A stretch of 64,000 bases of DNA from Thermodesulfobacteriota bacterium (GTDB lineage: Bacteria > Desulfobacterota_D > UBA1144 > Nemesobacterales > Nemesobacteraceae), in the NCBI GenBank assembly GCA_965204035.1, contig OZ241964.1:1231933-1295932 (forward strand), written 5' to 3'. The notes under the pieces were generated by a model. The model ran no database searches. It saw nothing but the letters and a program-made list of their open reading frames with translations, and had not been told where the DNA came from. Position 1 is the first letter of the stretch. Each line of letters starts with the position of its first letter. Made by a program: the position numbers and the translations under genes. Positions 1 to 55,862 of this stretch are shown here, piece by piece.

Positions 1-266
1 ACGCGGTGATAATGATAGGGGAAATCGGGGGATCCGACGAAGAAGAGGCGGCCGAATACATAAGCGGGAACTTCACTAAGCCCATAGCCGCATTCATCGC
101 GGGAGCCACGGCTCCCAAGGGGAAAAGAATGGGCCACGCGGGAGCCATAATTTCAGGGAGTTCGGGAAGCGCCGAGGACAAGTTCCAGGCACTCGAGCGC
201 GCCGGAGTCACTACCTGCAAGAGCCCGGCCGAGATGGGAGAAGCGCTTAAAAGCGTAATCTCGTAA
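1..266 (+). CDS. sucD: Succinyl-CoA ligase alpha subunit, C-terminal fragment (gene starts upstream of the window)
   Basis: ORF 6..266 translation ([26 protein letters not shown]...) matches the SucD C-terminus; the reading frame is open to the window edge. Confidence 0.8.
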
Positions 267-344
267 AGTCCCCAAGACTTGACTGCCACTGCGAACCCTG
301 CTTCTCACACGGGTAATCCTTAAATTGGTTATTATCTTGCCCGT

Positions 345-2876
345 ATGGAACTAAAACTTTTTGAACTCGAGATCTTCAACAACCTTCTCGGAACAATCGC
401 CGAGGAGATGGGTTCTGTTCTCGTAAGAGCGGGATTCTCTCCCAACATAAAGGAAAGAAGGGACCTTTCCTGCGCCATATTCAACTCAGACGGAGAAATG
501 ATCGCCCAGGCTGCCCATATCCCCATACACCTGGGATCAATGTCGTTTGCCGCAAGATCGGTAGCGACGGAGAATCTCTCCCCGGGAGACGTCTTCATAC
601 TTAACGATCCTTTCCGCGGCGGAACGCATCTTCCGGACGTAACGTGCGTAGCGCCAGTGTTCGTCGACGGGAAGCCCGAATTTCTGCTCGCCTCGCGAGC
701 CCACCACGCTGACATAGGGGGCGACACCCCGGGGTCCATGCCGCTTTCAACGACAATCCACGAAGAGGGAATCATAATACCCCCGACCAGGATACGGGAA
801 GAGGGAATACTGCGTGAAACCCTTCTCCGGGAAATAATCCTATCGACCAGGGATCATGAGGAAAGAGAAGGGGATCTTCGGGCGCAGATAGCCTCGCTTG
901 ATACCGGGGAGAGAAGGATGCTGGAACTGCTCGAAAAATATTCTCTTTTGAAAGTAAACCAGGCCGCTTCCAGGCTTCTTGACTACGGTGAGAGGCTCAT
1001 GAGAAACGCCATAGAGAAAATACCGGACGGCAATTATGTCTTTATTGACTACCTTGAAGACGACGGAGCGGGAACGAGGAATATACCAATACAGGTAAAA
1101 ATAGAGATAAGCGGGGACGCGGCGGCGGTCGATTTCAGAGGAAGCTCGAAAAAGGTCAAGGGATGTCTTAACGCTCCCCTCAGCGTAACCACCTCCGCGG
1201 TTCTTTACTGTTTTCAGTGTCTCTCGGGCGAAGACACGCCCCTTAACTCGGGAACCCTGAGACCGATTGAAATCAGAGTCGATGAGGACTCGATTCTTAA
1301 CGCCAGGTACCCGAGCGCGGTCGTCGGGGGAAACGTCGAGACGTCCCAGAGGATAGTGGACGTGGTGTTCGGAGCGCTCGCGGAGGCAATACCCGAAACG
1401 ATACAGGCGGCAAGCGCGGGAACGATGAGCAACCTCGCGTTCGGTTCGCCGCAAGACGCACCTTCCGATACCTCCTACGCCTACTACGAAACAATAGCCG
1501 GCGGAATGGGAGGACGGTCGGGCGCGGGAGGAGCGAACGCAGTGCACACGCACATGACAAACACGCTCAACACCCCCGTTGAGGCAATCGAGAAGGAACT
1601 TCCCGTAATGGTGGAATCATACTCCGTAAGAAAGGGGTCAGGAGGCACCGGCAGGTTTCCGGGCGGGGATGGAATCATAAGGCAGTACAGGTTCCTTGAG
1701 GACTCTCATGTATCCCTCATAACCGAGAGAAGGGAGAAGCGGCCCTGGGGAGCCCGCGGCGGAGAAGACGGAAAAAGCGGGCGAAACACGCTTGTGTCGG
1801 ATGGGGAAGAGAAAAAGCTGCCCGCGAAATGCTCTATTGCGGTAAAAGCCGGAGAAGCGGTAAGAATCGAGACTCCGGGAGGGGGAGGATGGGGAGCGCC
1901 CGTCCCGGCTAATTTTTTCACCATCGACGCTCACCAGGACATAGCCTTTCACGTGCGCCACTACAAAAGGGACTTCGAGAACCCCGAGGTTCCCTGCATG
2001 ATAACCCTGCCCGGACTCAGACAGAGCGGGGCCAGGGTTGTTTTCAACACCGTTTTCATACACCCGAAGCACAAACCCGCGGGTTCCGTCGCGGAAGCCA
2101 TGGCCCAGCTTGACGTGTACGACGGCATATACAGTGAACACTCAGAGAGCGTCTTCCAGATAAAAAACAGACGGGATGTAGACAGACTGCTGGAAGGCGA
2201 AAAAATCGGATTTTTCACTCTCATGGAGGGAGCGGACCCGATCTTGAACCCGGAACATCTTATTGAATACCAAAAAAGGGGCGTACGGGCTCTCGGCCTT
2301 TCCTGGAACAACAGGAACATCTACGCTTCCGGGCCCGAAAGCAGCGAAGGGCTATCCCCGCAGGGAAATGAGCTTCTGCGACAGATGAACGCCTTGGGCA
2401 TCACGCTTGACCTCTCCCACCTTAACGAACGCTGTTTCTGGGAAAGCGTGGAGCTAACCGAGCTCATACCCGTTGCGACCCACTCAAACTCAAGAGCGCT
2501 TGTTGATCATCCCAGGAACCTGCGTGACGAGCAGCTTTGCGCCATTTCCGAAAGAGGCGGGGTAATCGGGGTTGTGTTCTACGGAAAATTTCTAAGAAAG
2601 GCGGAGGGATGCGCCACCCTCGAAGACATATACGCCCACATAGACCACATCATAAGCGTCTGCGGCGAGAACCACGTGGGAGTGGGAACCGACATGGACG
2701 GAGCGCCGGTAAAGGATTTCCCCGAAGAGATGAGACACATATCCAAACTCCCCGCACTCCCCGAGTATCTTCTGGGCAAAGGGTATCCGAGGGGGGTTGT
2801 GGAGAAAATAATGGGAATGAACTTCCTTCGGGTAATAAAAACGAACCTCGGAAAGGTACCGGACGACATTGAGTAA
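345..2876 (+). CDS. Fusion protein: hydantoinase B/oxoprolinase (HyuB-type) N-terminal domain (~aa 1-515) plus membrane dipeptidase (peptidase M19) C-terminal domain (~aa 520-843)
   Basis: 843 aa single ORF. The N-terminal part resembles HyuB/5-oxoprolinase B subunits. After TIDAHQDIAFHV the sequence follows the renal-dipeptidase M19 pattern (ALGLSWNNRN, LDLSHLNERCFWE, ATHSNSRAL, VGVGTDMDGA). Confidence 0.7.
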   Translation: MELKLFELEIFNNLLGTIAEEMGSVLVRAGFSPNIKERRDLSCAIFNSDGEMIAQAAHIPIHLGSMSFAARSVATENLSPGDVFILNDPFRGGTHLPDVTCVAPVFVDGKPEFLLASRAHHADIGGDTPGSMPLSTTIHEEGIIIPPTRIREEGILRETLLREIILSTRDHEEREGDLRAQIASLDTGERRMLELLEKYSLLKVNQAASRLLDYGERLMRNAIEKIPDGNYVFIDYLEDDGAGTRNIPIQVKIEISGDAAAVDFRGSSKKVKGCLNAPLSVTTSAVLYCFQCLSGEDTPLNSGTLRPIEIRVDEDSILNARYPSAVVGGNVETSQRIVDVVFGALAEAIPETIQAASAGTMSNLAFGSPQDAPSDTSYAYYETIAGGMGGRSGAGGANAVHTHMTNTLNTPVEAIEKELPVMVESYSVRKGSGGTGRFPGGDGIIRQYRFLEDSHVSLITERREKRPWGARGGEDGKSGRNTLVSDGEEKKLPAKCSIAVKAGEAVRIETPGGGGWGAPVPANFFTIDAHQDIAFHVRHYKRDFENPEVPCMITLPGLRQSGARVVFNTVFIHPKHKPAGSVAEAMAQLDVYDGIYSEHSESVFQIKNRRDVDRLLEGEKIGFFTLMEGADPILNPEHLIEYQKRGVRALGLSWNNRNIYASGPESSEGLSPQGNELLRQMNALGITLDLSHLNERCFWESVELTELIPVATHSNSRALVDHPRNLRDEQLCAISERGGVIGVVFYGKFLRKAEGCATLEDIYAHIDHIISVCGENHVGVGTDMDGAPVKDFPEEMRHISKLPALPEYLLGKGYPRGVVEKIMGMNFLRVIKTNLGKVPDDIE

Positions 2877-2940
2877 CGCATCGCCGCCCTGCCTCCGCTT
2901 TACCCTTCCCTACCGCGTCTTTCCAATGGTACAGGCAAGT

Positions 2941-4188
2941 TTACTGAACAAGAAAAATGCCTTGATTCGTTTCCCTGCCGGAGATCTGTATCTCAAACAA
3001 CTTTGTCAGCAACGCGAAAGTCGCTTTGCTTTCATGATCCCTAGCGTCGATGTAAAACCAGTGCCCGTTATGTCTGGCAAAGACCGAAGCGCAGTCTCCA
3101 CCAGTTCGGGGACCTGAACAAATCATCTGAGGTTGCGTATCGCTTGATATGACTTCGAATCGCCGTCCGGCGGGACTGCAGTCCCAGCCATCTCGCTTTT
3201 CGCCCTCTTTATCGCAACTTTCGCTGTCGTTGATCTTTGAGATTCTGACTATTTCCCTGTCCCCGAGGGGCACTTTCACGTTCTGCGACAGATAGTGCAT
3301 TATTCCGAATAATGAGCGGGTTCTCACTTTTATCTCGTTTGTTTCGGGGCTGGACCTAGCTTCAGAGTCGGTCAGTATTAAAATTCCTCCTCCACCTTTA
3401 ATCTTCAGAAGATCCGTCAACTTTTTCCATTGCGGGTCACTATTGTTTTCGCACAAGCAATCAAAGTTGTTATCCAGAAAGCAGGCTATTATTTTTTTTG
3501 GCGATTCGCTTTTTTTGGTTTCGGTAGGGGAACAGATCTCATCAGGGCTGTCGGCATTGAAAAACCTTAATTTATTCTGTTGCCTCAAATCTTTTAATGC
3601 GTCAAGTATATCATCGTATTTGTTGAATTCTTCCTGTTTTGGCAAACGCTTCGGCGTAGGTCCGGATGCAAACGGGGCATTTAATGCGGGGCCGAAACGC
3701 TCAACCGCTATAGCCAGAACGCGTTCTACCGAGAACCCTGACTGGGTAAGACCAAACACTGTCTCAAGCCCCAAACGTTGATTCATGGTCGTATTCAGTT
3801 CCTTGCCTACAAGCGGACTGTATTGCAGGGTAGTTTCACGGGCACCGCCTATTCCCACCTGCCCTGAGAGACTATTTTCGTTTCCCACGCTATTGTCTAC
3901 TGAGGAGCCAAGGACGCTGGTTACCGCGCCGGTTAATGAAACCTGACTCGGCGCCTGTTTGTATTTTTCCGTTACCGTTCCGACGGTCGTAAACACGGGC
4001 GGTTCTCCATAACGCATGCGCACCAGGTTTTTAAGCATCTGGCTGTCTCTGGCCACAGCCATCTGATCAATAAAGTTGCTTTGCCATTTTTCGTTCCAAT
4101 TCATAGTCTGGCAGCCGGCCAGCGCCAAAGCGACTGACACGACAACTGCAAACAGGATAAAGGAACTGATTCTACGGTTTTTGGACAT
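2941..4188 (-). CDS. Hypothetical lipoprotein (signal peptide plus LAGC lipobox), Cys-rich central region, lower GC than its neighbours
   Basis: The N-terminus MSKNRRISSFILFAVVVSVALALAGC is a classic lipoprotein signal. No recognisable catalytic motif. The gene is AT-richer than the flanking genes. Confidence 0.6.
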   Translation of the reverse strand: MSKNRRISSFILFAVVVSVALALAGCQTMNWNEKWQSNFIDQMAVARDSQMLKNLVRMRYGEPPVFTTVGTVTEKYKQAPSQVSLTGAVTSVLGSSVDNSVGNENSLSGQVGIGGARETTLQYSPLVGKELNTTMNQRLGLETVFGLTQSGFSVERVLAIAVERFGPALNAPFASGPTPKRLPKQEEFNKYDDILDALKDLRQQNKLRFFNADSPDEICSPTETKKSESPKKIIACFLDNNFDCLCENNSDPQWKKLTDLLKIKGGGGILILTDSEARSSPETNEIKVRTRSLFGIMHYLSQNVKVPLGDREIVRISKINDSESCDKEGEKRDGWDCSPAGRRFEVISSDTQPQMICSGPRTGGDCASVFARHNGHWFYIDARDHESKATFALLTKLFEIQISGRETNQGIFLVQ

Positions 4189-7208: not shown

Positions 7209-7490
7209 ATGACAGGTTCGAAAACCAAGCATGTTTGGACCATCGCCGAGGCCAAAGCAAAACTTTCCGAAATACTGAGGCTCGCCGAGACGGAAGGCCC
7301 GCAATGTATCGGAGTACGCAAATCCTTCATTCTGATACCCGCTAAGTTGTGGCAAGACAAAAAACCGCCTAGAAAGCATATGGGTAAATGGTTAGTTGAA
7401 AATATGCCGAGGGGGACAAACCTCCCGGTCCCCGACCGTCGCGAGCCTGAACGCGAAATCCCGTTCATTGATGAGAACGACTCCGAATGA
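7209..7490 (+). CDS. Phd/YefM-family antitoxin, upstream copy with no cognate toxin directly following
   Basis: 93 aa with a Phd-like pattern (WTIAEAKAKLSEILRLAE...GVRKSFILIPA). Own RBS GGAGGA. Paralogous to 7564..7842. Confidence 0.65.
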   Translation: MTGSKTKHVWTIAEAKAKLSEILRLAETEGPQCIGVRKSFILIPAKLWQDKKPPRKHMGKWLVENMPRGTNLPVPDRREPEREIPFIDENDSE

Positions 7491-7563: not shown

Positions 7564-7842
7564 ATGAACACTTCCAAAAGCCAGCATGTCTGGACTGTCG
7601 CCGAGGCCAAGGCGAAGCTTTCCGAAATATTGATGCTTGCCGAGACGGAAGGTCCGCAATGTATCGGAGTACGCAAATCCTTCATTCTGATACCCGCTAA
7701 GTTGTGGCAGGACAAAGAATCACCTAAGAAACCTATGGGTCAGTGGCTTCTTGAAAATATGTCCCGGGCAGGGGAGTTTGAAATCCCGCATAACCGAGAG
7801 TCCAAACGCAAAATCCCCTTCATAGAGGACGGTGAGGAGTGA
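7564..7842 (+). CDS. Phd/YefM-family antitoxin (VapB-like), cognate partner of downstream VapC
   Basis: 92 aa paralog of 7209..7490 with long near-identical nucleotide stretches. Its stop overlaps the GTG start of the PIN gene (GTGA). Confidence 0.75.
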   Translation: MNTSKSQHVWTVAEAKAKLSEILMLAETEGPQCIGVRKSFILIPAKLWQDKESPKKPMGQWLLENMSRAGEFEIPHNRESKRKIPFIEDGEE

Positions 7843-8261
7843 GCGGTTACATTCTGGACACCAACGTTATATCGGAACTGACCAGAAAGTACCCTGATCC
7901 AAGAGTGTCAACATTCATATCAGCGCAGAAGGAACAGCTCTGGCTGTCGCCGGTCGTTCTGCATGAGCTTGAATTCGGTCTGCAACTTCTTCCAGAGGGA
8001 AAGCGTCGTTTCGAGTTGTATAGCCTTTTATCAGAGTTCGTCTCTGGACACGAAGACCGTATTCTGCCGCTGGCAAGAAAAGAAGCGGAGTGGGCAGCGC
8101 GGTTCAGGGCACAAGCCAGAAAGTCTGGTCGCGTGCTAGACCTAGGCGACGCACTAATTGCGGGAACCGCAAAAACGCATGATCTCTCTGTAGCCACGCG
8201 AAACATCGGGGATTTTGCCGGACTGGATATCAGAATCACAAATCTCTGGGAAACGCAATAG
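7839..8261 (+). CDS. vapC: PIN-domain ribonuclease toxin VapC
   Basis: 140 aa. N-terminus ILDTNVISEL with the conserved acidic residues. Toxin-antitoxin overlap with the upstream antitoxin. Confidence 0.85.
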   Translation: MSGYILDTNVISELTRKYPDPRVSTFISAQKEQLWLSPVVLHELEFGLQLLPEGKRRFELYSLLSEFVSGHEDRILPLARKEAEWAARFRAQARKSGRVLDLGDALIAGTAKTHDLSVATRNIGDFAGLDIRITNLWETQ

Positions 8262-8383: not shown

Positions 8384-11338
<2,955 letters not shown>

Positions 11339-11444
11339 GAGGCGTGAAAATCCTCGATAATACTAACAACACGATCAATTCTGTTTCTCAGCGTTATATT
11401 CAATTGTCAAAGATCAAAAAAGCATTCGAAATTCTTTTTTTATA

Positions 11445-11517
11445 TGGAGGTGAACGGGCTCGAACCGTCGACCTCCTGCTTGCAAAGCAGGCGCTCTCCC
11501 AACTGAGCTACACCCCC
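11445..11517 (-). tRNA. tRNA-Ala(TGC) in the 16S-23S spacer (CCA not encoded)
   Basis: Reverse complement GGGGGTGTAGCTCAGTTGGGAGAGCGCCTGCTTTGCAAGCAGGAGGTCGACGGTTCGAGCCCGTTCACCTCCA forms a cloverleaf with anticodon TGC. Confidence 0.9.
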
Positions 11518-11520
11518 TAT

Positions 11521-11597
<77 letters not shown>

Positions 11598-11677
11598 CCT
11601 GTTGCTTTTTAAGCGCGGGAAATACTTTTTCGTAAAAAGCAGACGACGAGCGAAAAAAAGACAGATATCTCCGTGAA

Positions 11678-13211
<1,534 letters not shown>

Positions 13212-13394
13212 AAGAATTTAAAAAGAATTTACGGATACTGCTCTAGTTCGCCCGCTATCGTCTGCTATTAAATTTTCAAAGATCAAGTTATCAAAATGGG
13301 TGGAATATAGTACTCACCCACCGGAAATTGTCAATTTAAAAAGAACAAGAAAAACAGAACAACTTCAAACAAAAAAATGAAAGTGAGCCATCAT

Positions 13395-32311: not shown

Positions 32312-32607
32312 GCGTTTTTACCTCCAACTGATTCCGACTTTTACTTATAGTATTCCATAATTTTATATACAGATAATTTATTAAAATCTTATTTGCCTTT
32401 CGTTTAATGCTGGTGAAGTCACATTAAACGGTAAACAAAACAGGAACCAAACGGAAAAGACGCTGCGGCGGAAATTCCGCCAGCCTGAATATTGCGCTGT
32501 TTTCCCCTGATACGCAACAAATTTCGCTATCCCGCATTTCTAAAAAATCGGTTTTTGTGTAGATTGATTAGACTGGACCGCAACGGTTCACCTGTTTGGA
32601 GAATAAA

Positions 32608-32700
<93 letters not shown>

Positions 32701-32721
32701 CTGGTCGCTGGTTTTGATATC

Positions 32722-34419
32722 ATGGCATACAGAGTACTTGCCCGCAAGTGGCGACCCCAGACTTTCGAAGACCTAGTCGGTCAGGAATTCCCAGCCGTAA
32801 CGCTCAGAAACTCTATCGAATCCGGGAAAATAGCCCACGCCCTCCTGTTCGCCGGCCCGAGAGGCACGGGCAAGACATCCACGGCGAGAATCGTCGCCAA
32901 GGCCGTAAACTGCGAGGAAAAAGACGGGGAGAAGTACCCCTGCTCAACCGACCAGTGCTCAATCTGCAAGGAGATATCAGAGGGGAAATCGCTTGACGTG
33001 CAGGAGATTGACGCCGCGTCGCACACGGGCGTGGCCGACGTTCGCGAGATCATAGAGAGCGTGAAATACTCCCCGGCTTCCGCGAAAAAGAAAGTCTACA
33101 TAATCGACGAAGTGCACATGCTCTCCCAGTCGGCCTTTAACGCCCTTCTCAAAATAATGGAAGAGCCCCCCGAGCACGCGATTTTCATACTGGCGACCAC
33201 CGAAGCGCACAAGGTCCCCCCGACCATCATGTCCCGCTGCCAGAGATACGACTTCAAGAAGATACCGGTCGAGAAAATAAAGGAATCCCTCGAGAAGATA
33301 ACAAAGGCGGAGGGGATAAAGATCGACACGGAAACCCTCTACCTGATCGCGAGGGAATCGGAGGGAAGCATGAGGGACTCGCTGAGCCTGCTTGACCAGC
33401 TGACGGTGTCCTTCGAAGACAAAATAACCCACACAGACGTGATAAGCCTGCTCGGCATACCGGATAACGAGTCGCTTAAAAGCATCCTTAGGGCCGTTTT
33501 CGCCAAGGAGCCGGCAAAATGCGTGGAGCTTGTGCGAAACGCCGAGTCGAAGGGAATAAGCCCGAGGAGAATGGCCCAGGACATCATCTACATGATGAGG
33601 AACCTGCTCTACCTTAAGATCTGCGGCAAGGATTTTGTTTCCGACCTGTCCCCGGATGAAAAAGACGAACTTTCGGAACTTGTAAAGAACGAATCCACAG
33701 AAACCGTGGAACTCCTTTTTAACGTAATAATCGAAGGGGGAGAGAAGATACGCGGCTCCTTTTACCCGGAAATAGTGCTTGAACTTGCGCTTGTAAAGAT
33801 GAGCACGGTCGGAAAAGTCGAAAAGATAGACGACATCCTGAAAAGGCTTGAGAGACTGTCTCCGCAGGGCTCCGGCACGGGGAAACCACCGGGTCCCCAG
33901 GGAGGACAGAGGAAAACCGCGGCGCGCGGTTCCGAGAAACGGCAGGACAAACCCGCAGAGAAAAAGAGCAGGCACGTTGAAGAAAAAGACGCGGGGGAAA
34001 ACGAAAAACCGCCAAAGCAAACACCCGCGCCCGCGACCGGGGAGCAGACCTCGGGCGGCGGTCCCGCAAAACAGGAGGTCGTTGACTTTGTGCACGGCAA
34101 AGACAAGTTTTTAGCGAGAAAGCTTGCCCAGGCACACCTCCTTGAAGTAAGCGGGAACCGGGTGAGCGTGAAATTTCTTAAAAACGGCATAAATCATGAA
34201 AAAGAGCTTAAAAAATCAAGCAAACTAAGAGATATACTAAGTGAGATGCTCGGCGCTGAGAGAGTAAGGCTCGATATAGATACCATAAACGACGAGGGGA
34301 TTAACGGAACCGGCAAAGCCTCGAGAAAGCCTGATCCCGCGGAGGACGAGATAGTTAACTACGCCATCCGGCAGTTTGACGCCAGCGTGATAAAAAGAAA
34401 AAATTTAAGCCAGGGGTGA
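32722..34419 (+). CDS. dnaX: DNA polymerase III subunit gamma/tau
   Basis: MAYRVLARKWRPQTFEDLVGQE, Walker A GPRGTGKTS, zinc module C..C...C..C, SRC motif, and a charged C-terminal tau extension. Start reassigned to the internal ATG at 32722. Confidence 0.9.
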   Translation: MAYRVLARKWRPQTFEDLVGQEFPAVTLRNSIESGKIAHALLFAGPRGTGKTSTARIVAKAVNCEEKDGEKYPCSTDQCSICKEISEGKSLDVQEIDAASHTGVADVREIIESVKYSPASAKKKVYIIDEVHMLSQSAFNALLKIMEEPPEHAIFILATTEAHKVPPTIMSRCQRYDFKKIPVEKIKESLEKITKAEGIKIDTETLYLIARESEGSMRDSLSLLDQLTVSFEDKITHTDVISLLGIPDNESLKSILRAVFAKEPAKCVELVRNAESKGISPRRMAQDIIYMMRNLLYLKICGKDFVSDLSPDEKDELSELVKNESTETVELLFNVIIEGGEKIRGSFYPEIVLELALVKMSTVGKVEKIDDILKRLERLSPQGSGTGKPPGPQGGQRKTAARGSEKRQDKPAEKKSRHVEEKDAGENEKPPKQTPAPATGEQTSGGGPAKQEVVDFVHGKDKFLARKLAQAHLLEVSGNRVSVKFLKNGINHEKELKKSSKLRDILSEMLGAERVRLDIDTINDEGINGTGKASRKPDPAEDEIVNYAIRQFDASVIKRKNLSQG

Positions 34420-39617: not shown

Positions 39618-41141
39618 TTAACCTTTAGATTGTAATCTCAATGGAGCAAAGAAATGTTCAACCCATTCGGGAAGTGATTCCGTCTCTTTCACGCATCTCA
39701 CTGCTTCGGTAATTTTTTCAGTTGACATCAAAGAGAGAAAAGCCGGTGTTGGTACCAAGGCTCTGTTCAGGTCATTGGGTTCAAATTTGTCTAGAGAGTC
39801 ACCATATTTACGCATTGAAAGCGAAATAATTTCCCTTCCGGCTTGCGACAAAAAATAGAGAAACAGGTGTTCCACATAGCCTAAACCAAACAAATTGGGC
39901 TGAAACCCATGATAACAAGTCAGATTTAGTGCTCTGGTTCTGTTTAATATGATTTTGTATGCTCCACGGGAAAATACACCAAACAAAAGAGGGGATGGGC
40001 TTCTTCTCTCCGTCTTGTACCAAGGTTCTCTATTTTTCGTCAGGAAGCGCTCATGATAATTCTTGCTTTCTCCAAAACTGATGTATTCCTCGACACCCTT
40101 AGAGAGCTTTCCATTAACGGAGAAAAGATAAACAGGCTTATCCAAAGTAGCTAGATCTTCAAAATCGGAATCTTCAAAGACAGATTTTCTGATCTGCGAG
40201 CTCTTGGTAATACAAGGAATGCACTCCGTTTCAAGGTCAATGCTTTTTGCTTCTGCATTCGTAGGTTTCAGGACGAAGAACTCATTCGCCCCGGTGGCGA
40301 TTCCTCGACTGAACCTACCAAAATATTCAAGTGTTGTTGTTCGACTGCCGTCAACTTCAAACGATTTTTTCTGGAAATAAGGCAGCCATTTCTCTTTCGC
40401 ATCAAGTTGATTAAGGGAAATTTCAGAGACAGCCTCAAGCGTTTCGAATACTAATAGTTCATCAAGAGTTTTGATGTTGAAGAATTTTACCGAAGAATGC
40501 CGGGCTGCTTTGTCGTATAAGATTATCCCAACGGATGTTGTAACGTCTGGGAAGATATTTTTCTCGCAGTCAAAGCTTAGAATTCCGTAAAGATGTCCCG
40601 CTTCAGCAAGTCTTTGTTTTATCATGGTGCCGTAGCCGGTATTCAGGAATTCAAGAGGCATTATGTAGGCTAAACGACCGCAGTCAGTCAGTTCTGAAAG
40701 AGATTTTAAGAGAAAAGCAGAAGCGATATTGGTGTAACCAGAAATTCTGATTCCAAGATGGTTTTCAAATTCCTGAAAAACCAAGTCTCTGTTCAAAAAT
40801 TTCTGGAAGCGCATGTAGGGTGGATTACAGACAATACACTCGTGTTTCATATTCCAAGAGCGCAAATAATCCGCAACAAAAACAAAGTCAGATGGTTTGC
40901 CCTTATTAAGTTCCCAAAACTCAAGTATTCTGGAATCTATTTCACATGCCGTGAATTTAACTTCGGGCCGATCATTTACAGCATCATAAAACGCACCTAA
41001 GCCGAACGCAGGATCAAAAAGAGATTTTGTTCCCGAATCCAGCACCCAGTTAACCATAAAAGCCGCAACCTCACTGTGTGTAAAAAACTGCCCGAACTCC
41101 TTGCGGTGCTCGCCACCTACTTTCTCATGGTAATCAAGCAT
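39618..41141 (-). CDS. gamma-class N6-adenine DNA methyltransferase (Eco57I/TaqI-like motif order X-I-IV) with a C-terminal target-recognition region
   Basis: FGQFFTHSEV (motif X), DPAFGLGAF (motif I, AdoMet binding), CNPPY (motif IV). ~40% GC. Overlaps the upstream REase gene by 8 nt. Confidence 0.8.
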   Translation of the reverse strand: MLDYHEKVGGEHRKEFGQFFTHSEVAAFMVNWVLDSGTKSLFDPAFGLGAFYDAVNDRPEVKFTACEIDSRILEFWELNKGKPSDFVFVADYLRSWNMKHECIVCNPPYMRFQKFLNRDLVFQEFENHLGIRISGYTNIASAFLLKSLSELTDCGRLAYIMPLEFLNTGYGTMIKQRLAEAGHLYGILSFDCEKNIFPDVTTSVGIILYDKAARHSSVKFFNIKTLDELLVFETLEAVSEISLNQLDAKEKWLPYFQKKSFEVDGSRTTTLEYFGRFSRGIATGANEFFVLKPTNAEAKSIDLETECIPCITKSSQIRKSVFEDSDFEDLATLDKPVYLFSVNGKLSKGVEEYISFGESKNYHERFLTKNREPWYKTERRSPSPLLFGVFSRGAYKIILNRTRALNLTCYHGFQPNLFGLGYVEHLFLYFLSQAGREIISLSMRKYGDSLDKFEPNDLNRALVPTPAFLSLMSTEKITEAVRCVKETESLPEWVEHFFAPLRLQSKG

Positions 41142-42198
41142 CTTTAATTATTTCCTGAGAAAAAACTTCGGAATCTAGATATCCACGTCCTTCTTTGAAC
41201 GTTACGTAGAAGAGCAGTCTCCCGCGATTAAGGATCTTCAACTTGGAATAATGTTTAGGCATATCAATACGTCCCAATACTTCTTTACCTACCCGAACAT
41301 TAATTTTTATCGTGGTTTTTCTCTGATTCTTTTCATCTTTCTCAACAGAGAAGAGAGCCCCCTCGTTTTGGGGATCGGAACTGATCGTAAGAATATCCTT
41401 AAAGGGAATTATATAAGCCTTATCAAAAAACACCTGAAGATAAAAATGCCTTACACCAAAATTTTGTATCCAGCGGTTCACGAGTGCCAAATCTTCAAGC
41501 TTAGGAGTAATGCTCAAATAGTCTCTTTTATGTAACACTTTTATTTGCTCTTTCAGCAACTTCAGTAATTGGCTTATACGTTTCAAATCTTCTGACGAAG
41601 ACCATGACCTTGCGCGGAAGTCAAGTTCACAAAAAGTATCGTCCGTTGCAAACTTAATCAAATTATGCAGTTGGGGGCTTTTCTCAAGAAGAAGACCTGA
41701 CAGTGGTTCTTTCATAAGTTCTTTCTGAATACCGCGGAATTCCTTTTTTGCCTTGCGAACCCGGTCATCCATGAAGGAAGAATATTTGTTTACAAGAAAA
41801 CTGCTAGACCGAATCTCAATAGCTGCCACCGCTTTCTGGACAATGTCATCGCCGAGACTTGAGGGATCCATACCAATCAAGTCGGACCGCCTAAAAATCA
41901 AAAGATCTGGTTTCTTCCCTGTAACGTTTAACTCGTCCTGATATTTTGAGTAAAATTCCTCAAAATCCGGGTCACCGGCCGCAATATTTTCCCTTCTCCC
42001 GTAATTTACTGCACAGTAATCAATGGAGTTTTCGTTTATGGCGTTTAATACTATCTGCTCAGCCCAATCGCCCTGTTCTCTATTGGTGAGGAAATTCGAA
42101 CTAGCCAGCGTTGGTGCTCTCCCACTCATCTGAATATCCGTATCTATATCAAATGGAAGTGAGGCAATTAAGGATGCGATTGTTTCTTTGTATTTCAT
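41134..42198 (-). CDS. Putative type II restriction endonuclease (partner of the downstream MTase)
   Basis: 354 aa AT-rich ORF translationally coupled to the MTase. Possible PD-(D/E)xK-like region (KKPDLLIF...AAIEIRSS). Assignment rests mainly on operon context. Confidence 0.45.
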   Translation of the reverse strand: MKYKETIASLIASLPFDIDTDIQMSGRAPTLASSNFLTNREQGDWAEQIVLNAINENSIDYCAVNYGRRENIAAGDPDFEEFYSKYQDELNVTGKKPDLLIFRRSDLIGMDPSSLGDDIVQKAVAAIEIRSSSFLVNKYSSFMDDRVRKAKKEFRGIQKELMKEPLSGLLLEKSPQLHNLIKFATDDTFCELDFRARSWSSSEDLKRISQLLKLLKEQIKVLHKRDYLSITPKLEDLALVNRWIQNFGVRHFYLQVFFDKAYIIPFKDILTISSDPQNEGALFSVEKDEKNQRKTTIKINVRVGKEVLGRIDMPKHYSKLKILNRGRLLFYVTFKEGRGYLDSEVFSQEIIKDA

Positions 42199-54606: not shown

Positions 54607-55862
54607 CGGATTAGATTCAAGCTGTAAACCGAGTATAATGTAGTGATGATAAGAACTTACAAGTGCAGGGTGAAGCTGTCCAAAGCTGGTCACGAACGGT
54701 TGACCGGTATATTCGCAATGTCTGCGGAACTGTACAACGCGGGTTTAGAATCCCGCATTGACTGCTACAAACGGACAGGCGAAGGTCGCTCGTATTATGA
54801 CCAGTGCAAGGAACTTGTTCAGGTAAGGGCGGAGCTGCCGGAGTTTGAGTCGGTGTCCAGTATTGTGTTCCGTGGCGTGCTCTCAAGGCTTGACAAGGCG
54901 TACAAGAGGTTCTTCAAGCATGGAGGCTTTCCCCGCTTCAAGAGCCGGTATCGCTGGCGGACGATAGAGATAAATGACAAGGCATGGAGTATGCTCAAGC
55001 GGGAGGGAAACAAACTGATTCTAAAGGTCAAAGGGCTTCCCCGCATTGCGGTGAAGCCTTCCCGGGAGCTTCCCCCGAACGCCATGCTCAAGGCGATTCG
55101 GATTACCAGAAAGCCTCTGCGGACGGAAGTGGCGTTATCGTACGAATTGCCGACTCCCGAGACAAAACCAGTCAGCAGCCCCGTTGGAATAGATATGGGC
55201 ATATCGAAGCGTCTGACGCTGAGCGATGGGGGAACTGTGGAAAAACGGGAGATATACAGAAAGAAACTGATACGCCTCCAACGTTCCGTATCCCGCAAGG
55301 TGAAGGGCAGCAACAACAGGCGTAAAGCAGTGCGTCTGCTCGCAAAGGAATGGCAGAGGTTATCGGACGGGGAAAGAGATTATCTTCACCGCCTGACCAG
55401 AGAGATAGTCAGGATGTACGACTTCATAGCGGTAGAGAAACTAAGGACAAAGAACATGCTTCGCGACAAGAATTTAGCAAAGAGTATTTCCGAGCAGACC
55501 TGGGGCACTGCTATTACGCTGCTTAACGAGAAGGCTGAAAGTGCTGGCGTTGGGATGGTGGCAGTGGACCCCGAGGGAACTTCTCAGGAATGCTCTGCTT
55601 GCGGAGCAACGGTAAAGAAAGACTTGAGCGTGCGTGTCCATAAATGCGACTGTGGTTATGTCGCCGACAGGGACGTAAACGCTGCAATTAATATCCTTCA
55701 TCGAGGCATCTCGATTGCGGGCGGGAATGTTACCCGCATGGTCGGAAGGATTAAAGATAAGTCAGAAGTTGTTCTGACTCGGCCAAGAACAGTGTATGAA
55801 AGTGTCAACTTAAATACATAATTCCCAAAGTTAAGGTATAGCCTCTCGGGACGGAGAAAAAA
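54607..55862 (+). mobile_element. IS200/IS605-family (IS1341-type) insertion carrying only tnpB, with no tnpA
   Basis: The tnpB ORF fills the interval between the upstream gene stop (54606) and the dapA start (55863). The ~35 bp upstream and ~40 bp downstream would hold the LE/RE and the omegaRNA (reRNA) 3' portion. Confidence 0.55.
54643..55821 (+). CDS. tnpB: TnpB (OrfB) RNA-guided endonuclease of the IS200/IS605 family
   Basis: 392 aa. RuvC-I (VGIDMGI), RuvC-II (IAVEKL), zinc finger CSACG...CDCG, RuvC-III (DRDVNAAINI). Confidence 0.85.
   Translation: MMIRTYKCRVKLSKAGHERLTGIFAMSAELYNAGLESRIDCYKRTGEGRSYYDQCKELVQVRAELPEFESVSSIVFRGVLSRLDKAYKRFFKHGGFPRFKSRYRWRTIEINDKAWSMLKREGNKLILKVKGLPRIAVKPSRELPPNAMLKAIRITRKPLRTEVALSYELPTPETKPVSSPVGIDMGISKRLTLSDGGTVEKREIYRKKLIRLQRSVSRKVKGSNNRRKAVRLLAKEWQRLSDGERDYLHRLTREIVRMYDFIAVEKLRTKNMLRDKNLAKSISEQTWGTAITLLNEKAESAGVGMVAVDPEGTSQECSACGATVKKDLSVRVHKCDCGYVADRDVNAAINILHRGISIAGGNVTRMVGRIKDKSEVVLTRPRTVYESVNLNT

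What the first reader, a model, noticed from the sequence alone, without database searches (positions are those of the whole stretch)
345..2876. Single-polypeptide fusion of a hydantoinase-B/5-oxoprolinase-type domain with an M19 membrane dipeptidase domain
The 843-aa ORF switches from a HyuB/oxoprolinase-B-like N-terminal ~515 residues to a complete M19 (renal dipeptidase) domain from about residue 520. The M19 domain starts at TIDAHQDIA and contains the Zn-ligand His/Asp positions.

No hydantoinase A (HyuA) partner gene is adjacent. Both parent families act in the gamma-glutamyl cycle and glutathione turnover: 5-oxoproline ring opening and Cys-Gly dipeptide hydrolysis. The fusion could therefore channel breakdown of a cyclic amide or dipeptide metabolite. 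I am not aware of this architecture being characterised.
Basis: partly seen in the sequence, partly recalled or inferred. Interest (0 to 1): 0.55.

Follow-up and report, generated by a model that had tools for sequence, protein, structure and literature searches.

The report
Fused lactamase-subunit and dipeptidase enzyme
In one branch of the uncultured Dadabacteria, two neighbouring genes have merged into a single 843-residue protein with both catalytic metal sites intact: the metal-hydrolase (B) subunit of an ATP-dependent lactam-opening enzyme and an M19 zinc dipeptidase. This points to an uncharacterised pathway linking the two activities, but the ATPase (A) subunit this enzyme type normally needs was not found nearby.

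Summary
ORF 345-2876 (+) encodes 843 aa: a full-length Hydantoinase_B domain (aa 6-519, E 2.5e-201), a six-residue linker, and a full-length Peptidase_M19 domain (aa 524-832, E 5.5e-78). Both metal centres are intact.

It is not an assembly artefact. About 36 full-length protein clusters (74-98% identical, 840-853 aa), named Candidatus Dadabacteria where a source names them, share the fusion. They show 20 in-frame linker variants, and some lie on 0.9-2.4 Mb contigs.

In unfused relatives, hyuB and the M19 gene are adjacent at the same locus, separated by 2 nt, an 80-nt spacer, a 4-nt overlap, or a Memo-like gene. The fusion is therefore an end-to-end merger of a conserved two-gene module.

In 80 outgroup genomes (HyuB about 50% identical), none has M19 nearby and 42 have hyuA adjacent or within about 3 kb of hyuB. 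No HyuA is in the 64-kb window or within 10 kb in related loci. Whether one exists elsewhere in the genome could not be determined.

Most likely function: a B-type lactam (5-oxoproline-like) hydrolase half joined to a dipeptidase for peptide or gamma-glutamyl breakdown products. The substrates are inferred only. This is a new domain architecture built from known families and is of moderate interest.

The parts
345..2876 (+). Complete fused gene (843 codons plus stop): HyuB-type domain, short linker, M19 dipeptidase domain
   Evidence: ORF list; Pfam two-domain hit; about 36 full-length fused homologue clusters
360..1901 (+). Hydantoinase_B/oxoprolinase (PF02538) domain, aa 6-519. This is the metal-dependent hydrolytic 'B' subunit type of ATP-dependent lactamases and carboxylases
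   Evidence: Pfam E 2.5e-201 over the full profile; PDB sequence hits 7hk5_A E 2e-85 and 6yra_B E 2e-56; Foldseek hits 9h03_A, 6yra_B, 5l9w_A, 5m45_A
462..704 (+). Segment holding the HyuB metal-binding tetrad: D40 (462-464), H95 (627-629), D98 (636-638), H120 (702-704)
   Evidence: Aligned to CapB D41/H99/D102/H124; invariant in alignment A1
1896..1913 (+). Fusion linker APVPAN (aa 518-523). It lies between the HyuB C-terminal GGGGWG motif and the M19 N-terminal FF(T/I)(I/V)DAH motif, and is derived from the former HyuB tail and the first M19 codons
   Evidence: Junction comparison with unfused loci; 20 in-frame linker variants among fused homologues
1914..2840 (+). Peptidase_M19 (PF01244) domain, aa 524-832: binuclear-zinc TIM-barrel dipeptidase
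   Evidence: Pfam E 5.5e-78 over the full profile; PDB sequence hits 3neh/3lu2 at E about 1e-38; Foldseek TM 0.92-0.93, rmsd 1.8 A to Lmo2462
1932..2699 (+). Segment holding the M19 metal and catalytic motif residues: H530, D532 (HxD), E628, H692, H713, R724 (HPRN motif), D783/D785
   Evidence: Motif positions, and invariance of H530, D532, E628, H692, H713, D783/D785 in the 8-sequence alignment of fused and stand-alone M19 partners. R724 lies in the HPRN motif; its first residue is Ser in L003, the R-N pair is conserved by eye. Ligand roles are assigned from established knowledge of M19 motifs, not checked residue by residue against 1ITQ here
6..266 (+). 3' end of a sucD-like gene (succinyl-CoA ligase alpha type, GHAGA motif) directly upstream. 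It is a conserved syntenic neighbour and is not shown to be functionally linked
   Evidence: Pfam Ligase_CoA; same gene order in L001, L002, L007, L088

Best explanation
The gene encodes a genuine bifunctional protein. It arose in one subclade of Candidatus Dadabacteria when the stop codon and short spacer between two adjacent genes were lost. In L005 and L007 these genes abut or overlap and were probably translationally coupled. The two genes are a hyuB-type gene and an M19 dipeptidase gene, and they form a conserved two-gene module throughout the wider clade (shown).

The N-terminal half is the metal-dependent 'B' hydrolase subunit of the ATP-dependent lactamase family (5-oxoprolinase, N-methylhydantoinase, caprolactamase) with an intact Asp-His-Asp-His site. 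The C-terminal half is a binuclear-zinc dipeptidase with all ligand motifs intact (shown at sequence and fold level).

Inferred mechanism:
- The HyuB half hydrolyses an activated five- or six-membered lactam, most probably 5-oxoproline.
- The lactam is activated by a HyuA-type ATPase subunit encoded elsewhere in the genome.
- The M19 half cleaves a dipeptide from the same catabolic stream.
- The best-fitting stream is gamma-glutamyl or glutathione-type breakdown, where one cyclotransferase reaction yields 5-oxoproline plus Cys-Gly.

The two activities serve one salvage pathway. The physical fusion may add stoichiometry or complex stability rather than true channelling.

Approximate confidences: real fusion derived from an operon 0.95; the two halves act in one pathway 0.7; a trans-encoded HyuA is required 0.65; the specific 5-oxoproline plus Cys-Gly assignment 0.3-0.35. 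The overall confidence given (0.5) is for the statement as a whole, including the inferred trans-HyuA, one-pathway mechanism.
For: - Full-length domain hits.
- Fusion conserved in about 36 full-length clusters, some on Mb-scale contigs, with variable in-frame linkers.
- Unfused relatives have hyuB and M19 adjacent, separated by a 2-nt gap, an 80-nt spacer, a 4-nt overlap, or a Memo gene.
- The fused M19 half is 55-61% identical to those neighbour genes, and the HyuB half 62-67%.
- 15 exact contig-length coincidences between the independent HyuB and M19 hit lists.
- In 80 outgroup loci, none has M19 within +-10 kb and 42 have hyuA close by, usually directly upstream of hyuB. The M19 association is therefore clade-specific and derived from a canonical hyuAB ancestor.
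- Metal tetrad invariant; M19 motifs invariant; both folds confirmed.
- The HyuB half keeps 92% of the 156 positions that are at least 90% conserved in HyuA-linked HyuBs, as expected for a working B subunit.
- CapAB data show this enzyme type makes no product without ATP, and lactam opening is endergonic (PMC8453981).
- The nearest non-clade relatives are HyuA-HyuB fusions with OPLAH-like architecture. Others carry a D-glutamate cyclase domain, which makes 5-oxo-D-proline.
- In a rough NJ tree the nearest clade (gammaproteobacterial) has a glutaredoxin gene (CGFS motif seen in the L056 copy) downstream of hyuB in 6 of 11 loci.
- ChaC/GGCT producing 5-oxoproline plus Cys-Gly is established biochemistry (my own knowledge).
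Against: - No HyuA was found in the window or in any related locus, and its presence elsewhere in these genomes could not be checked.
- No ChaC, GGT or glutathione-synthesis gene was seen among the window ORFs scanned with Pfam (about 44 in all, mostly of 200 aa or more).
- The closest structural relatives of the M19 half are bacterial enzymes solved with L-Xaa-D-Xaa dipeptide mimics, not Cys-Gly-specific enzymes.
- The HyuB half has clade-specific substitutions at otherwise conserved positions (P67S, N167S/K/A, Q270K, A280S, R291Q, A327V, P354Q), which may mean a different substrate.
- Enzymes acting on two parallel products are fused less often than enzymes of consecutive steps.
- The inter-domain geometry is not confidently predicted (pTM 0.61).
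Confidence: 0.5

Rival explanations
1. Consecutive-step enzyme. The HyuB half, with or without HyuA, opens a lactam that is itself part of a peptide: a cyclic dipeptide (diketopiperazine, a six-membered bis-lactam) or an N-terminal pyroglutamyl dipeptide. This yields a linear dipeptide that the fused M19 half immediately cleaves to two amino acids.
For: Fusions and tight operons usually join consecutive steps. The HyuAB family opens 5-, 6- and 7-membered lactams (PMC8453981; PMC11033972 abstract). The product of such a ring opening would be exactly an M19 substrate. The M19 half keeps the HPRN arginine R724; its assignment to the substrate's free C-terminal carboxylate is from my memory of M19 structures and was not checked here. 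Clade-specific substitutions in the HyuB half are compatible with a changed substrate.
Against: No HyuAB-type enzyme acting on diketopiperazines or pyroglutamyl peptides is known to me or turned up in the literature searches, none of which queried those substrates specifically. There is no supporting gene context such as a transporter or cyclodipeptide genes. The HyuB pocket was not modelled with any substrate.
Confidence: 0.2
2. HyuA-independent system. In this clade M19 has replaced HyuA as the partner of HyuB. The HyuB half acts as an ATP-independent metallohydrolase, and an otherwise unfavourable ring opening is pulled forward by irreversible hydrolysis of its product in the M19 site.
For: HyuA is absent from all 9 loci of the clade, while M19 is present in 9 of 9. 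In a rough NJ tree the clade groups with other HyuA-unlinked HyuBs. Several positions conserved in HyuA-linked HyuBs are changed, some shared with the other unlinked clade: P67, N167, A280, S284.
Against: 38 of 80 outgroup hyuB genes are also unlinked from hyuA in heterogeneous contexts, so non-adjacency is common and does not show absence. 92% of family-conserved positions are retained. The characterised HyuAB-type enzyme read here (caprolactamase) needs ATP and the A subunit (PMC8453981), and to my knowledge so do the others. Genome-wide absence of HyuA was not shown.
Confidence: 0.15
3. Peptidoglycan-peptide salvage. The M19 half cleaves D-amino-acid-containing dipeptides such as L-Ala-D-Glu, and the HyuB half deals with 5-oxo-(D/L)-proline formed from the released glutamate.
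For: The closest structural relatives of the M19 half were solved with L-Xaa-D-Xaa dipeptide mimics. Dadabacteria are predicted peptidoglycan degraders (PMC8115339). Related HyuBs are fused to D-glutamate cyclase.
Against: This rests purely on association. No peptidoglycan-recycling genes flank the module, and no substrate data exist for this M19 subgroup.
Confidence: 0.1
4. Artefact: two separate genes joined by a sequencing or assembly error or by a frameshift at the junction.
For: The junction falls exactly where two genes abut in relatives. One low-coverage (3x) long-read contig shows a broken gene.
Against: About 36 independent full-length fused clusters from different samples and assemblers share the fusion, some on Mb-scale contigs. 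20 different in-frame linker variants include 3-nt-multiple indels. In the 3x contig the break is inside the HyuB domain and the junction is still fused.
Confidence: 0.02

Closest known systems
Caprolactamase CapAB of Pseudomonas jessenii (PDB 6YRA) and other two-subunit HyuAB-type ATP-dependent lactamases/hydantoinases
   Same: The N-terminal half is homologous over its full length to CapB (E 2e-56; Foldseek E 1e-32). It keeps the Asp-His-Asp-His metal site that is essential in CapB.
   Different: Only about 26-30% identical. The NCBIfam caprolactamase-beta equivalog score is 250 against a cutoff of 1000. There is no adjacent A subunit, and the protein carries a C-terminal M19 domain that no characterised member has.
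Fused HyuA-HyuB enzymes: eukaryote-type 5-oxoprolinase (OPLAH) architecture and the N-methylhydantoinase of PDB 9H03/7HK5
   Same: The best solved-structure match for the HyuB half (E 2e-85; Foldseek E 2.6e-45, 32% identity). The nearest non-clade sequence relatives (44-51% identical) have this 1,150-1,300-aa architecture.
   Different: In those proteins HyuB is fused to HyuA at its N-terminus. Here HyuB has no HyuA and is fused at its C-terminus to a dipeptidase.
Bacterial M19 dipeptidases Lmo2462 (3LU2/3NEH), Sco3058 (3ID7/3S2J), Rhodobacter sphaeroides M19 (3LY0/3FDG)
   Same: The C-terminal half has the same fold (TM 0.92-0.93 and rmsd 1.8 A to Lmo2462) and the same metal-ligand motifs.
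   Different: Those are stand-alone proteins of about 310-400 aa. Identity is 24-30%. The substrate range of this subgroup is unknown.
Cys-Gly dipeptidases of family M19 (human DPEP1, 1ITQ; fungal GliJ, 5LWZ)
   Same: Same family and fold. Cys-Gly hydrolysis is the activity that would link M19 to 5-oxoprolinase in glutathione breakdown.
   Different: 21-25% identity. Nothing shows that this M19 half prefers Cys-Gly.
HyuB / D-glutamate cyclase fusions
   Same: Another C-terminal fusion of a closely related HyuB (48-49% identical within a 46-49% band) to an enzyme handling a 5-oxoproline-related metabolite.
   Different: The partner domain is PF07286, not M19. At least P0180 also carries HyuA domains.

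Membership tests
Hydantoinase B/oxoprolinase family (PF02538; B/beta subunit of ATP-dependent lactamases and carboxylases) | Full-length match to the family profile above the curated threshold | tested here: met
   670 bits against a cutoff of 26.8, profile positions 3-519 of 519
Hydantoinase B/oxoprolinase family (PF02538; B/beta subunit of ATP-dependent lactamases and carboxylases) | [quoted passage not shown] | tested here: met
   D40/H95/D98/H120 align with CapB D41/H99/D102/H124 and are invariant in 17 sequences
Hydantoinase B/oxoprolinase family (PF02538; B/beta subunit of ATP-dependent lactamases and carboxylases) | Family fold | tested here: met
   The AF2 model (pLDDT 86) matches 9h03_A, 6yra_B, 5l9w_A and 5m45_A with probability 1.00
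Hydantoinase B/oxoprolinase family (PF02538; B/beta subunit of ATP-dependent lactamases and carboxylases) | Works with a HyuA-type ASKHA ATPase subunit or domain that activates the substrate | tested here: inconclusive
   No HyuA in the 64-kb window or in related loci. 42 of 80 outgroup loci have one nearby. The rest of the genome could not be searched, and the profile search for Dadabacteria HyuA was uninformative
Caprolactamase beta subunit (NCBIfam NF050157, equivalog) | Score above the equivalog cutoff | tested here: not met
   249.8 bits against a cutoff of 1000. It is a homologue but not a caprolactamase orthologue
Eukaryote-type 5-oxoprolinase (OPLAH architecture) | HyuA and HyuB domains in one polypeptide | tested here: not met
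   Only PF02538 and PF01244 are present; there are no Hydantoinase_A domains
Eukaryote-type 5-oxoprolinase (OPLAH architecture) | ATP-dependent conversion of 5-oxo-L-proline to L-glutamate | not testable with these tools
   Needs an enzyme assay
Peptidase family M19 (membrane/renal dipeptidase; PF01244) | Full-length match to the family profile above the curated threshold | tested here: met
   262.8 bits against a cutoff of 26, profile positions 6-318 of 319
Peptidase family M19 (membrane/renal dipeptidase; PF01244) | Binuclear zinc ligand motifs (HxD, bridging Glu, two His) and catalytic Asp | tested here: met
   H530/D532, E628, H692, H713 and D783/D785 are present and invariant in 8 fused and stand-alone sequences. 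The same motifs are aligned with 3neh/3lu2. Ligand roles are assigned at motif level from established knowledge
Peptidase family M19 (membrane/renal dipeptidase; PF01244) | TIM-barrel amidohydrolase fold of M19 | tested here: met
   TM 0.92-0.93 and rmsd 1.8 A to Lmo2462; also matches Sco3058, DPEP1 and GliJ
Peptidase family M19 (membrane/renal dipeptidase; PF01244) | Dipeptide hydrolysis and substrate preference (Cys-Gly, L-Xaa-D-Xaa) | not testable with these tools
   Needs an enzyme assay

The most novel reading that the evidence does not exclude
The Dadabacteria HyuB-M19 module is a HyuA-free, ATP-independent two-site enzyme. The M19 dipeptidase has replaced the ATPase subunit as HyuB's obligate partner. 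An intrinsically unfavourable lactam ring opening, for example of a cyclic dipeptide or pyroglutamyl peptide, is driven by immediate hydrolysis of the linear dipeptide product rather than by ATP. This would be a new way of powering the HyuB catalytic module and a new route for degrading cyclic dipeptides.
Probability: 0.12. Interest if true: 0.75.

Novelty: new variant of a known kind. Interest (0 to 1): 0.42.

Why it matters
HyuB-type subunits are known only as partners of HyuA-type ATPases in 5-oxoprolinases, hydantoinases, caprolactamase and acetone/acetophenone carboxylases. Here a whole bacterial clade instead links HyuB tightly to an M19 dipeptidase, and one branch fuses them.

This gene-fusion link predicts that the two activities belong to one pathway. 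It gives a concrete, easily testable handle on two questions: the unknown physiological substrates of bacterial M19 dipeptidases, and the function of hyuB genes that lie unlinked from hyuA.

If a HyuA partner exists elsewhere, the finding is a tidy example of a salvage enzyme, probably acting on 5-oxoproline plus a dipeptide, in the streamlined genomes of abundant marine and sponge-associated bacteria. If none exists, it would reveal a new, ATP-independent mode of action for this catalytic module.

Tried and rejected
1. Assembly or frameshift artefact. Rejected on conservation and in-frame linker variation. The one broken relative (L088, 3x coverage) is broken inside the HyuB domain, not at the junction. 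P0039 (HyuB-only, 84% identical) could not be located.

2. HyuA in the window or flanks. tblastn with the HyuA halves of P0124 and P0125 found nothing. As a positive control, the same queries detected HyuA in 42 of 80 outgroup loci.

3. HyuA elsewhere in Dadabacteria. A profile of five Desulfobacterota/Acidobacteriota-type HyuAs returned only Desulfobacterales-like hits. None was labelled Dadabacteria and none shared a contig length with a fusion-bearing contig. The search was uninformative, not negative.

It was used as an outgroup set instead.

5. Literature. Nothing was found on Dadabacteria plus hydantoinase, on hydantoinase B plus membrane dipeptidase, or on the 7HK5/9H03 structure. The supplements of the Dadabacteria genome paper have no hyuA/hyuB/OPLAH entries.

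6. The structure prediction was meant to test rigid domain packing.

7. I considered citing the P. putida component A/B 5-oxoprolinase as evidence that B needs A. I dropped this because PMC8453981 suggests that enzyme may be PxpABC-type.

8. I considered sucD as a possible phosphoryl-donor partner. This has no support: the adjacency is absent in L005/L006 and interrupted in L003/L004.

9. The promoter and terminator scan of 1-3200 gave nothing above shuffle expectation.
Full report
**1. The observation**

The ORF 345..2876 on the + strand is real. It has an ATG start, encodes 843 aa, and has no internal stop.

Pfam places a full-length Hydantoinase_B/oxoprolinase domain at residues 6-519 (E 2.5e-201, profile positions 3-519 of 519). 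A full-length Peptidase_M19 domain lies at residues 524-832 (E 5.5e-78, profile positions 6-318 of 319). NCBIfam finds only sub-threshold similarity to caprolactamase beta (250 bits against a cutoff of 1000) and to acetophenone carboxylase delta. The N-terminal half is therefore a family member but not an orthologue of a named enzyme.

Against solved structures, the HyuB half matches three proteins:
- the HyuB part of a 1,288-aa N-methylhydantoinase (7hk5/9h03, E 2e-85);
- caprolactamase CapB (6yra_B, E 2e-56);
- the acetophenone carboxylase metal subunit.

The M19 half matches Listeria Lmo2462 (3neh/3lu2, E about 1e-38) and other M19 dipeptidases, including Sco3058, GliJ and human DPEP1.

An AlphaFold2 model built on a 110-sequence alignment has mean pLDDT 86. 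Foldseek confirms both folds. The M19 half superposes on Lmo2462 with TM 0.92-0.93 and rmsd 1.8 A.

**2. Both catalytic centres are intact**

The caprolactamase paper (PMC8453981) shows that CapB binds its metal through Asp41, His99, Asp102 and His124, and that alanine mutants of these residues are inactive. In the pairwise alignment these correspond to D40, H95, D98 and H120 of the window protein. All four are invariant in a 17-sequence alignment of fused, unfused and more distant HyuBs.

In the M19 half, the following are present and invariant across fused domains and stand-alone partner genes:
- the HxD pair (H530, D532);
- the bridging-Glu motif (E628);
- the two His motifs (H692, H713);
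- the GxDxDG aspartates (D783, D785).

The HPRN arginine (R724) is also present; the first residue of that motif is Ser in L003. The ligand roles are assigned from established knowledge of M19 motifs. I did not check them residue by residue against 1ITQ.

**3. Not an artefact**

The full-length search found about 36 full-length clusters of 840-853 aa that are 74-98% identical and carry both Pfam domains. They come from NCBI, ENA, JGI and Logan assemblies. Several lie on contigs of 0.9-2.4 Mb, and where a source names them they are Candidatus Dadabacteria.

Across these the linker is 3-7 residues long and varies in sequence and length, for example APVPAN, TPAT, KTNTV and AAPRAKT. It gives 20 distinct junction variants, always in frame, between the invariant GGGGWG and FF(T/I)(I/V)DAH motifs.

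One relative on a 3x-coverage long-read contig is split, but the break is inside the HyuB domain and the junction remains fused.

**4. Origin of the fusion**

The nearest unfused HyuBs are 62-67% identical. They come from Dadabacteria, 'Thermodesulfobacteriota' and 'Deltaproteobacteria' MAGs. In every locus fetched they have a stand-alone M19 gene next to them on the same strand:

| Locus | Arrangement |
|---|---|
| L002 | SucD-HyuB-M19, 80-nt spacer |
| L005/L006 | HyuB-M19, 2-nt spacer, different upstream genes |
| L007 | SucD-HyuB-M19, 4-nt overlap |
| L003 and L004 | HyuB-Memo-M19 |

Those M19 genes are 55-61% identical to the fused M19 half.

Unfused HyuB usually ends 3-5 residues after GGGGWG (31 residues in L007), and unfused M19 starts MxxFF(I/T)(V/I)DAHED. 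The fused protein simply reads through.

Independent support comes from contig lengths. 15 of the top stand-alone M19 hits lie on contigs whose lengths are identical to contigs carrying top HyuB hits.

In the exhaustive search of 1.84 billion representatives, only one representative (P0008) matches both domains. All other top hits are HyuB-only proteins, HyuA-HyuB fusions, or one stand-alone M19. A second, distant HyuB-M19 fusion scoring below about 376 bits would not have been listed.

**5. Comparison with the rest of the family**

It did give 80 loci from Acidobacteriota, Chloroflexota, Desulfobacterota, Gammaproteobacteria and other groups, whose HyuB is 43-54% identical.

tblastn with HyuA and M19 probes gave these counts for the loci probed:

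| Set | M19 fused or within +-10 kb | HyuA nearby |
|---|---|---|
| 80 outgroup loci | 0 of 80 | 42 of 80 (mostly directly upstream of hyuB; a few up to about 7 kb away or downstream) |
| Query clade (window, L001-L007) | 8 of 8 | 0 of 8 |

L088 was fetched later. It also shows the fused M19 and no HyuA, by its precomputed Pfam annotations.

The other 38 outgroup loci lack HyuA, and some of those contigs are short. Their neighbours are heterogeneous: AsnB-like, a ClC channel, PBP1A, an oxidoreductase and glutaredoxin. An unlinked hyuB is therefore common, and lack of adjacency does not show that HyuA is absent from the genome.

In a rough neighbour-joining tree the M19-linked clade is monophyletic. 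It groups with a gammaproteobacterial clade whose hyuB is also unlinked. In 6 of that clade's 11 loci a glutaredoxin gene follows hyuB; the CGFS motif and Pfam hit were checked on the L056 copy.

The M19-linked HyuBs retain 92% of the 156 positions that are at least 90% conserved in HyuA-linked HyuBs. The comparison values are 96% for other unlinked HyuBs and 87.5% for the gammaproteobacterial clade. A handful of substitutions are clade-specific: P67S, N167S/K/A, Q270K, A280S, R291Q, A327V and P354Q. This looks like a working B subunit, possibly with an altered substrate pocket, and not like a decaying one.

**6. How it most likely works**

*Shown:* a single polypeptide with two intact metallohydrolase centres, derived from a conserved two-gene module.

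*From established knowledge of the families:*
- In HyuAB-type enzymes the A subunit uses ATP to activate the lactam, and the activated intermediate passes to the metal site of the B subunit for hydrolysis.
- Caprolactamase makes no product without ATP.
- Hydrolysis of such unstrained lactams is endergonic at neutral pH (PMC8453981).
- M19 enzymes hydrolyse dipeptides, including Cys-Gly and L-Xaa-D-Xaa.

*Inferred:* the HyuB half hydrolyses an activated 5-oxoproline-like lactam supplied by a HyuA encoded elsewhere. The M19 half cleaves a dipeptide from the same catabolic stream.

The best-fitting stream is gamma-glutamyl or glutathione-type breakdown, for these reasons:
- A single cyclotransferase reaction (ChaC/GGCT) yields 5-oxoproline plus Cys-Gly (my own knowledge).
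- The nearest HyuB relatives have the OPLAH-like HyuA-HyuB architecture.
- Other close relatives are fused to D-glutamate cyclase, which makes 5-oxoproline.
- The nearest clade in the tree sits next to a glutaredoxin gene.

I rate this specific assignment at only about one in three.

The main alternatives are:
- a consecutive-step reading, in which a lactam within a peptide is opened and the resulting dipeptide is then cleaved;
- a HyuA-independent reading;
- a peptidoglycan-peptide salvage reading.

The fusion arose from genes that in some relatives abut or overlap, in genomes reported as streamlined for the marine pelagic Dadabacteria clades (PMC8115339). The fusion step itself may therefore add little beyond fixed stoichiometry. 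The model's pTM of 0.61 gives no confident inter-domain geometry, so channelling remains unsupported.

**7. What could not be settled**

I could not establish whether these genomes encode a HyuA at all.
- The window and all flanks are negative.
- The tools do not allow whole-genome scans of the Mb-scale contigs.
- A HyuA profile search returned only Desulfobacterales-type proteins.
- The published Dadabacteria analysis and its supplements contain nothing on hyuA, hyuB or OPLAH.

No ChaC, GGT or glutathione genes were seen among the window ORFs scanned with Pfam (about 44 in all, mostly of 200 aa or more).

**8. Novelty and verdict**

Both domains are ordinary members of well-known families. 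The new elements are the architecture and the clade-wide HyuB-M19 linkage that replaces the usual HyuA-HyuB linkage. Literature searches found no description of either, and databases call the protein 'hypothetical protein' or 'N-methylhydantoinase B'.

I class this as a new variant of a known kind, of moderate interest (0.42). It is a clean gene-fusion clue to an uncharacterised pathway, and it gives a specific, testable question about whether a HyuB module can work without its ATPase. So far there is no evidence for anything mechanistically unprecedented.

Noticed in passing
window 6-266 (+); L001 9022-9951; L002 9091-9960; L007 9041-9934; L088 4166-4999: The sucD-like gene (succinyl-CoA ligase alpha type, GHAGA phosphohistidine motif) directly upstream of the fused gene has no sucC next to it. 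In L001, L002 and L007 it is directly preceded by a yicC-like gene, with one further gene in between in L088, and no ATP-grasp beta subunit lies within 10 kb upstream. In most bacteria sucC and sucD are adjacent (my own knowledge).
   Followed up: partly
P0158 (763 aa) and P0180 (1026 aa), from the representative search: Other HyuB proteins 48-49% identical to this one carry a C-terminal D-glutamate cyclase domain (PF07286). P0180 also has HyuA domains. This is another uncharacterised fusion tying this part of the HyuB family to 5-oxoproline chemistry.
   Followed up: partly
L003 11575-12801 and L004 11566-12807: In some Dadabacteria a 408-413-aa Memo-like (PF01875) gene is inserted between hyuB and the M19 gene, and a conserved 153-158-aa ORF with no Pfam hit sits just upstream of hyuB.
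   Followed up: partly
L041, L056, L058, L059, L062, L078 (gammaproteobacterial loci, including Alkalilimnicola ehrlichii): A clade of hyuB genes unlinked from hyuA has a small glutaredoxin gene downstream of hyuB in 6 of 11 loci (second gene downstream in L058). PF00462 and the CGFS motif were checked on the L056 copy only.
   Followed up: partly
window 7209-7490, 7564-7842, 7839-8261 (+): Two tandem paralogous Phd/YefM-like antitoxin ORFs (93 and 92 aa, near-identical N-termini) are followed by one PIN-domain toxin gene that overlaps the second antitoxin by 4 nt. This is a VapBC-like module with a duplicated antitoxin.
   Followed up: partly
window 8389-13214 (-): A complete rRNA operon (16S 11678-13214, 23S 8389-11336) with two tRNAs in the spacer (11445-11597). 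No 5S rRNA reached the Rfam threshold in the window.
   Followed up: no
window 39618-42198 (-): A type II restriction-modification pair: an Eco57I/N6-type methylase (39618-41141) and an AccI-family endonuclease (41134-42198), overlapping by 8 nt.
   Followed up: no
window 54643-55821 (+): A TnpB-like ORF (OrfB_IS605 plus Cas12f1-like TNB domain, 392 aa) lies between the aspartate-semialdehyde dehydrogenase and DHDPS genes. No TnpA was looked for.
   Followed up: no
window 32596-34419 (+) and 32613-32710 (+): The mechanically called dnaX ORF (TTG start at 32596) overlaps the SRP RNA gene (32613-32710). The true dnaX start is probably downstream of the SRP RNA.
   Followed up: no
window 2941-4188 (-): A 415-aa ORF with a lipoprotein-like N-terminus (…LALAGCQ…) lies immediately downstream of the fused gene, convergent with it, and has no Pfam match.
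   Followed up: no
L088 5078-7605: On a 3x-coverage long-read contig the orthologous fused gene is called as two ORFs, broken inside the HyuB domain. This is most likely a frameshift error of the assembly, and it shows that such breaks occur in this data type.
   Followed up: partly
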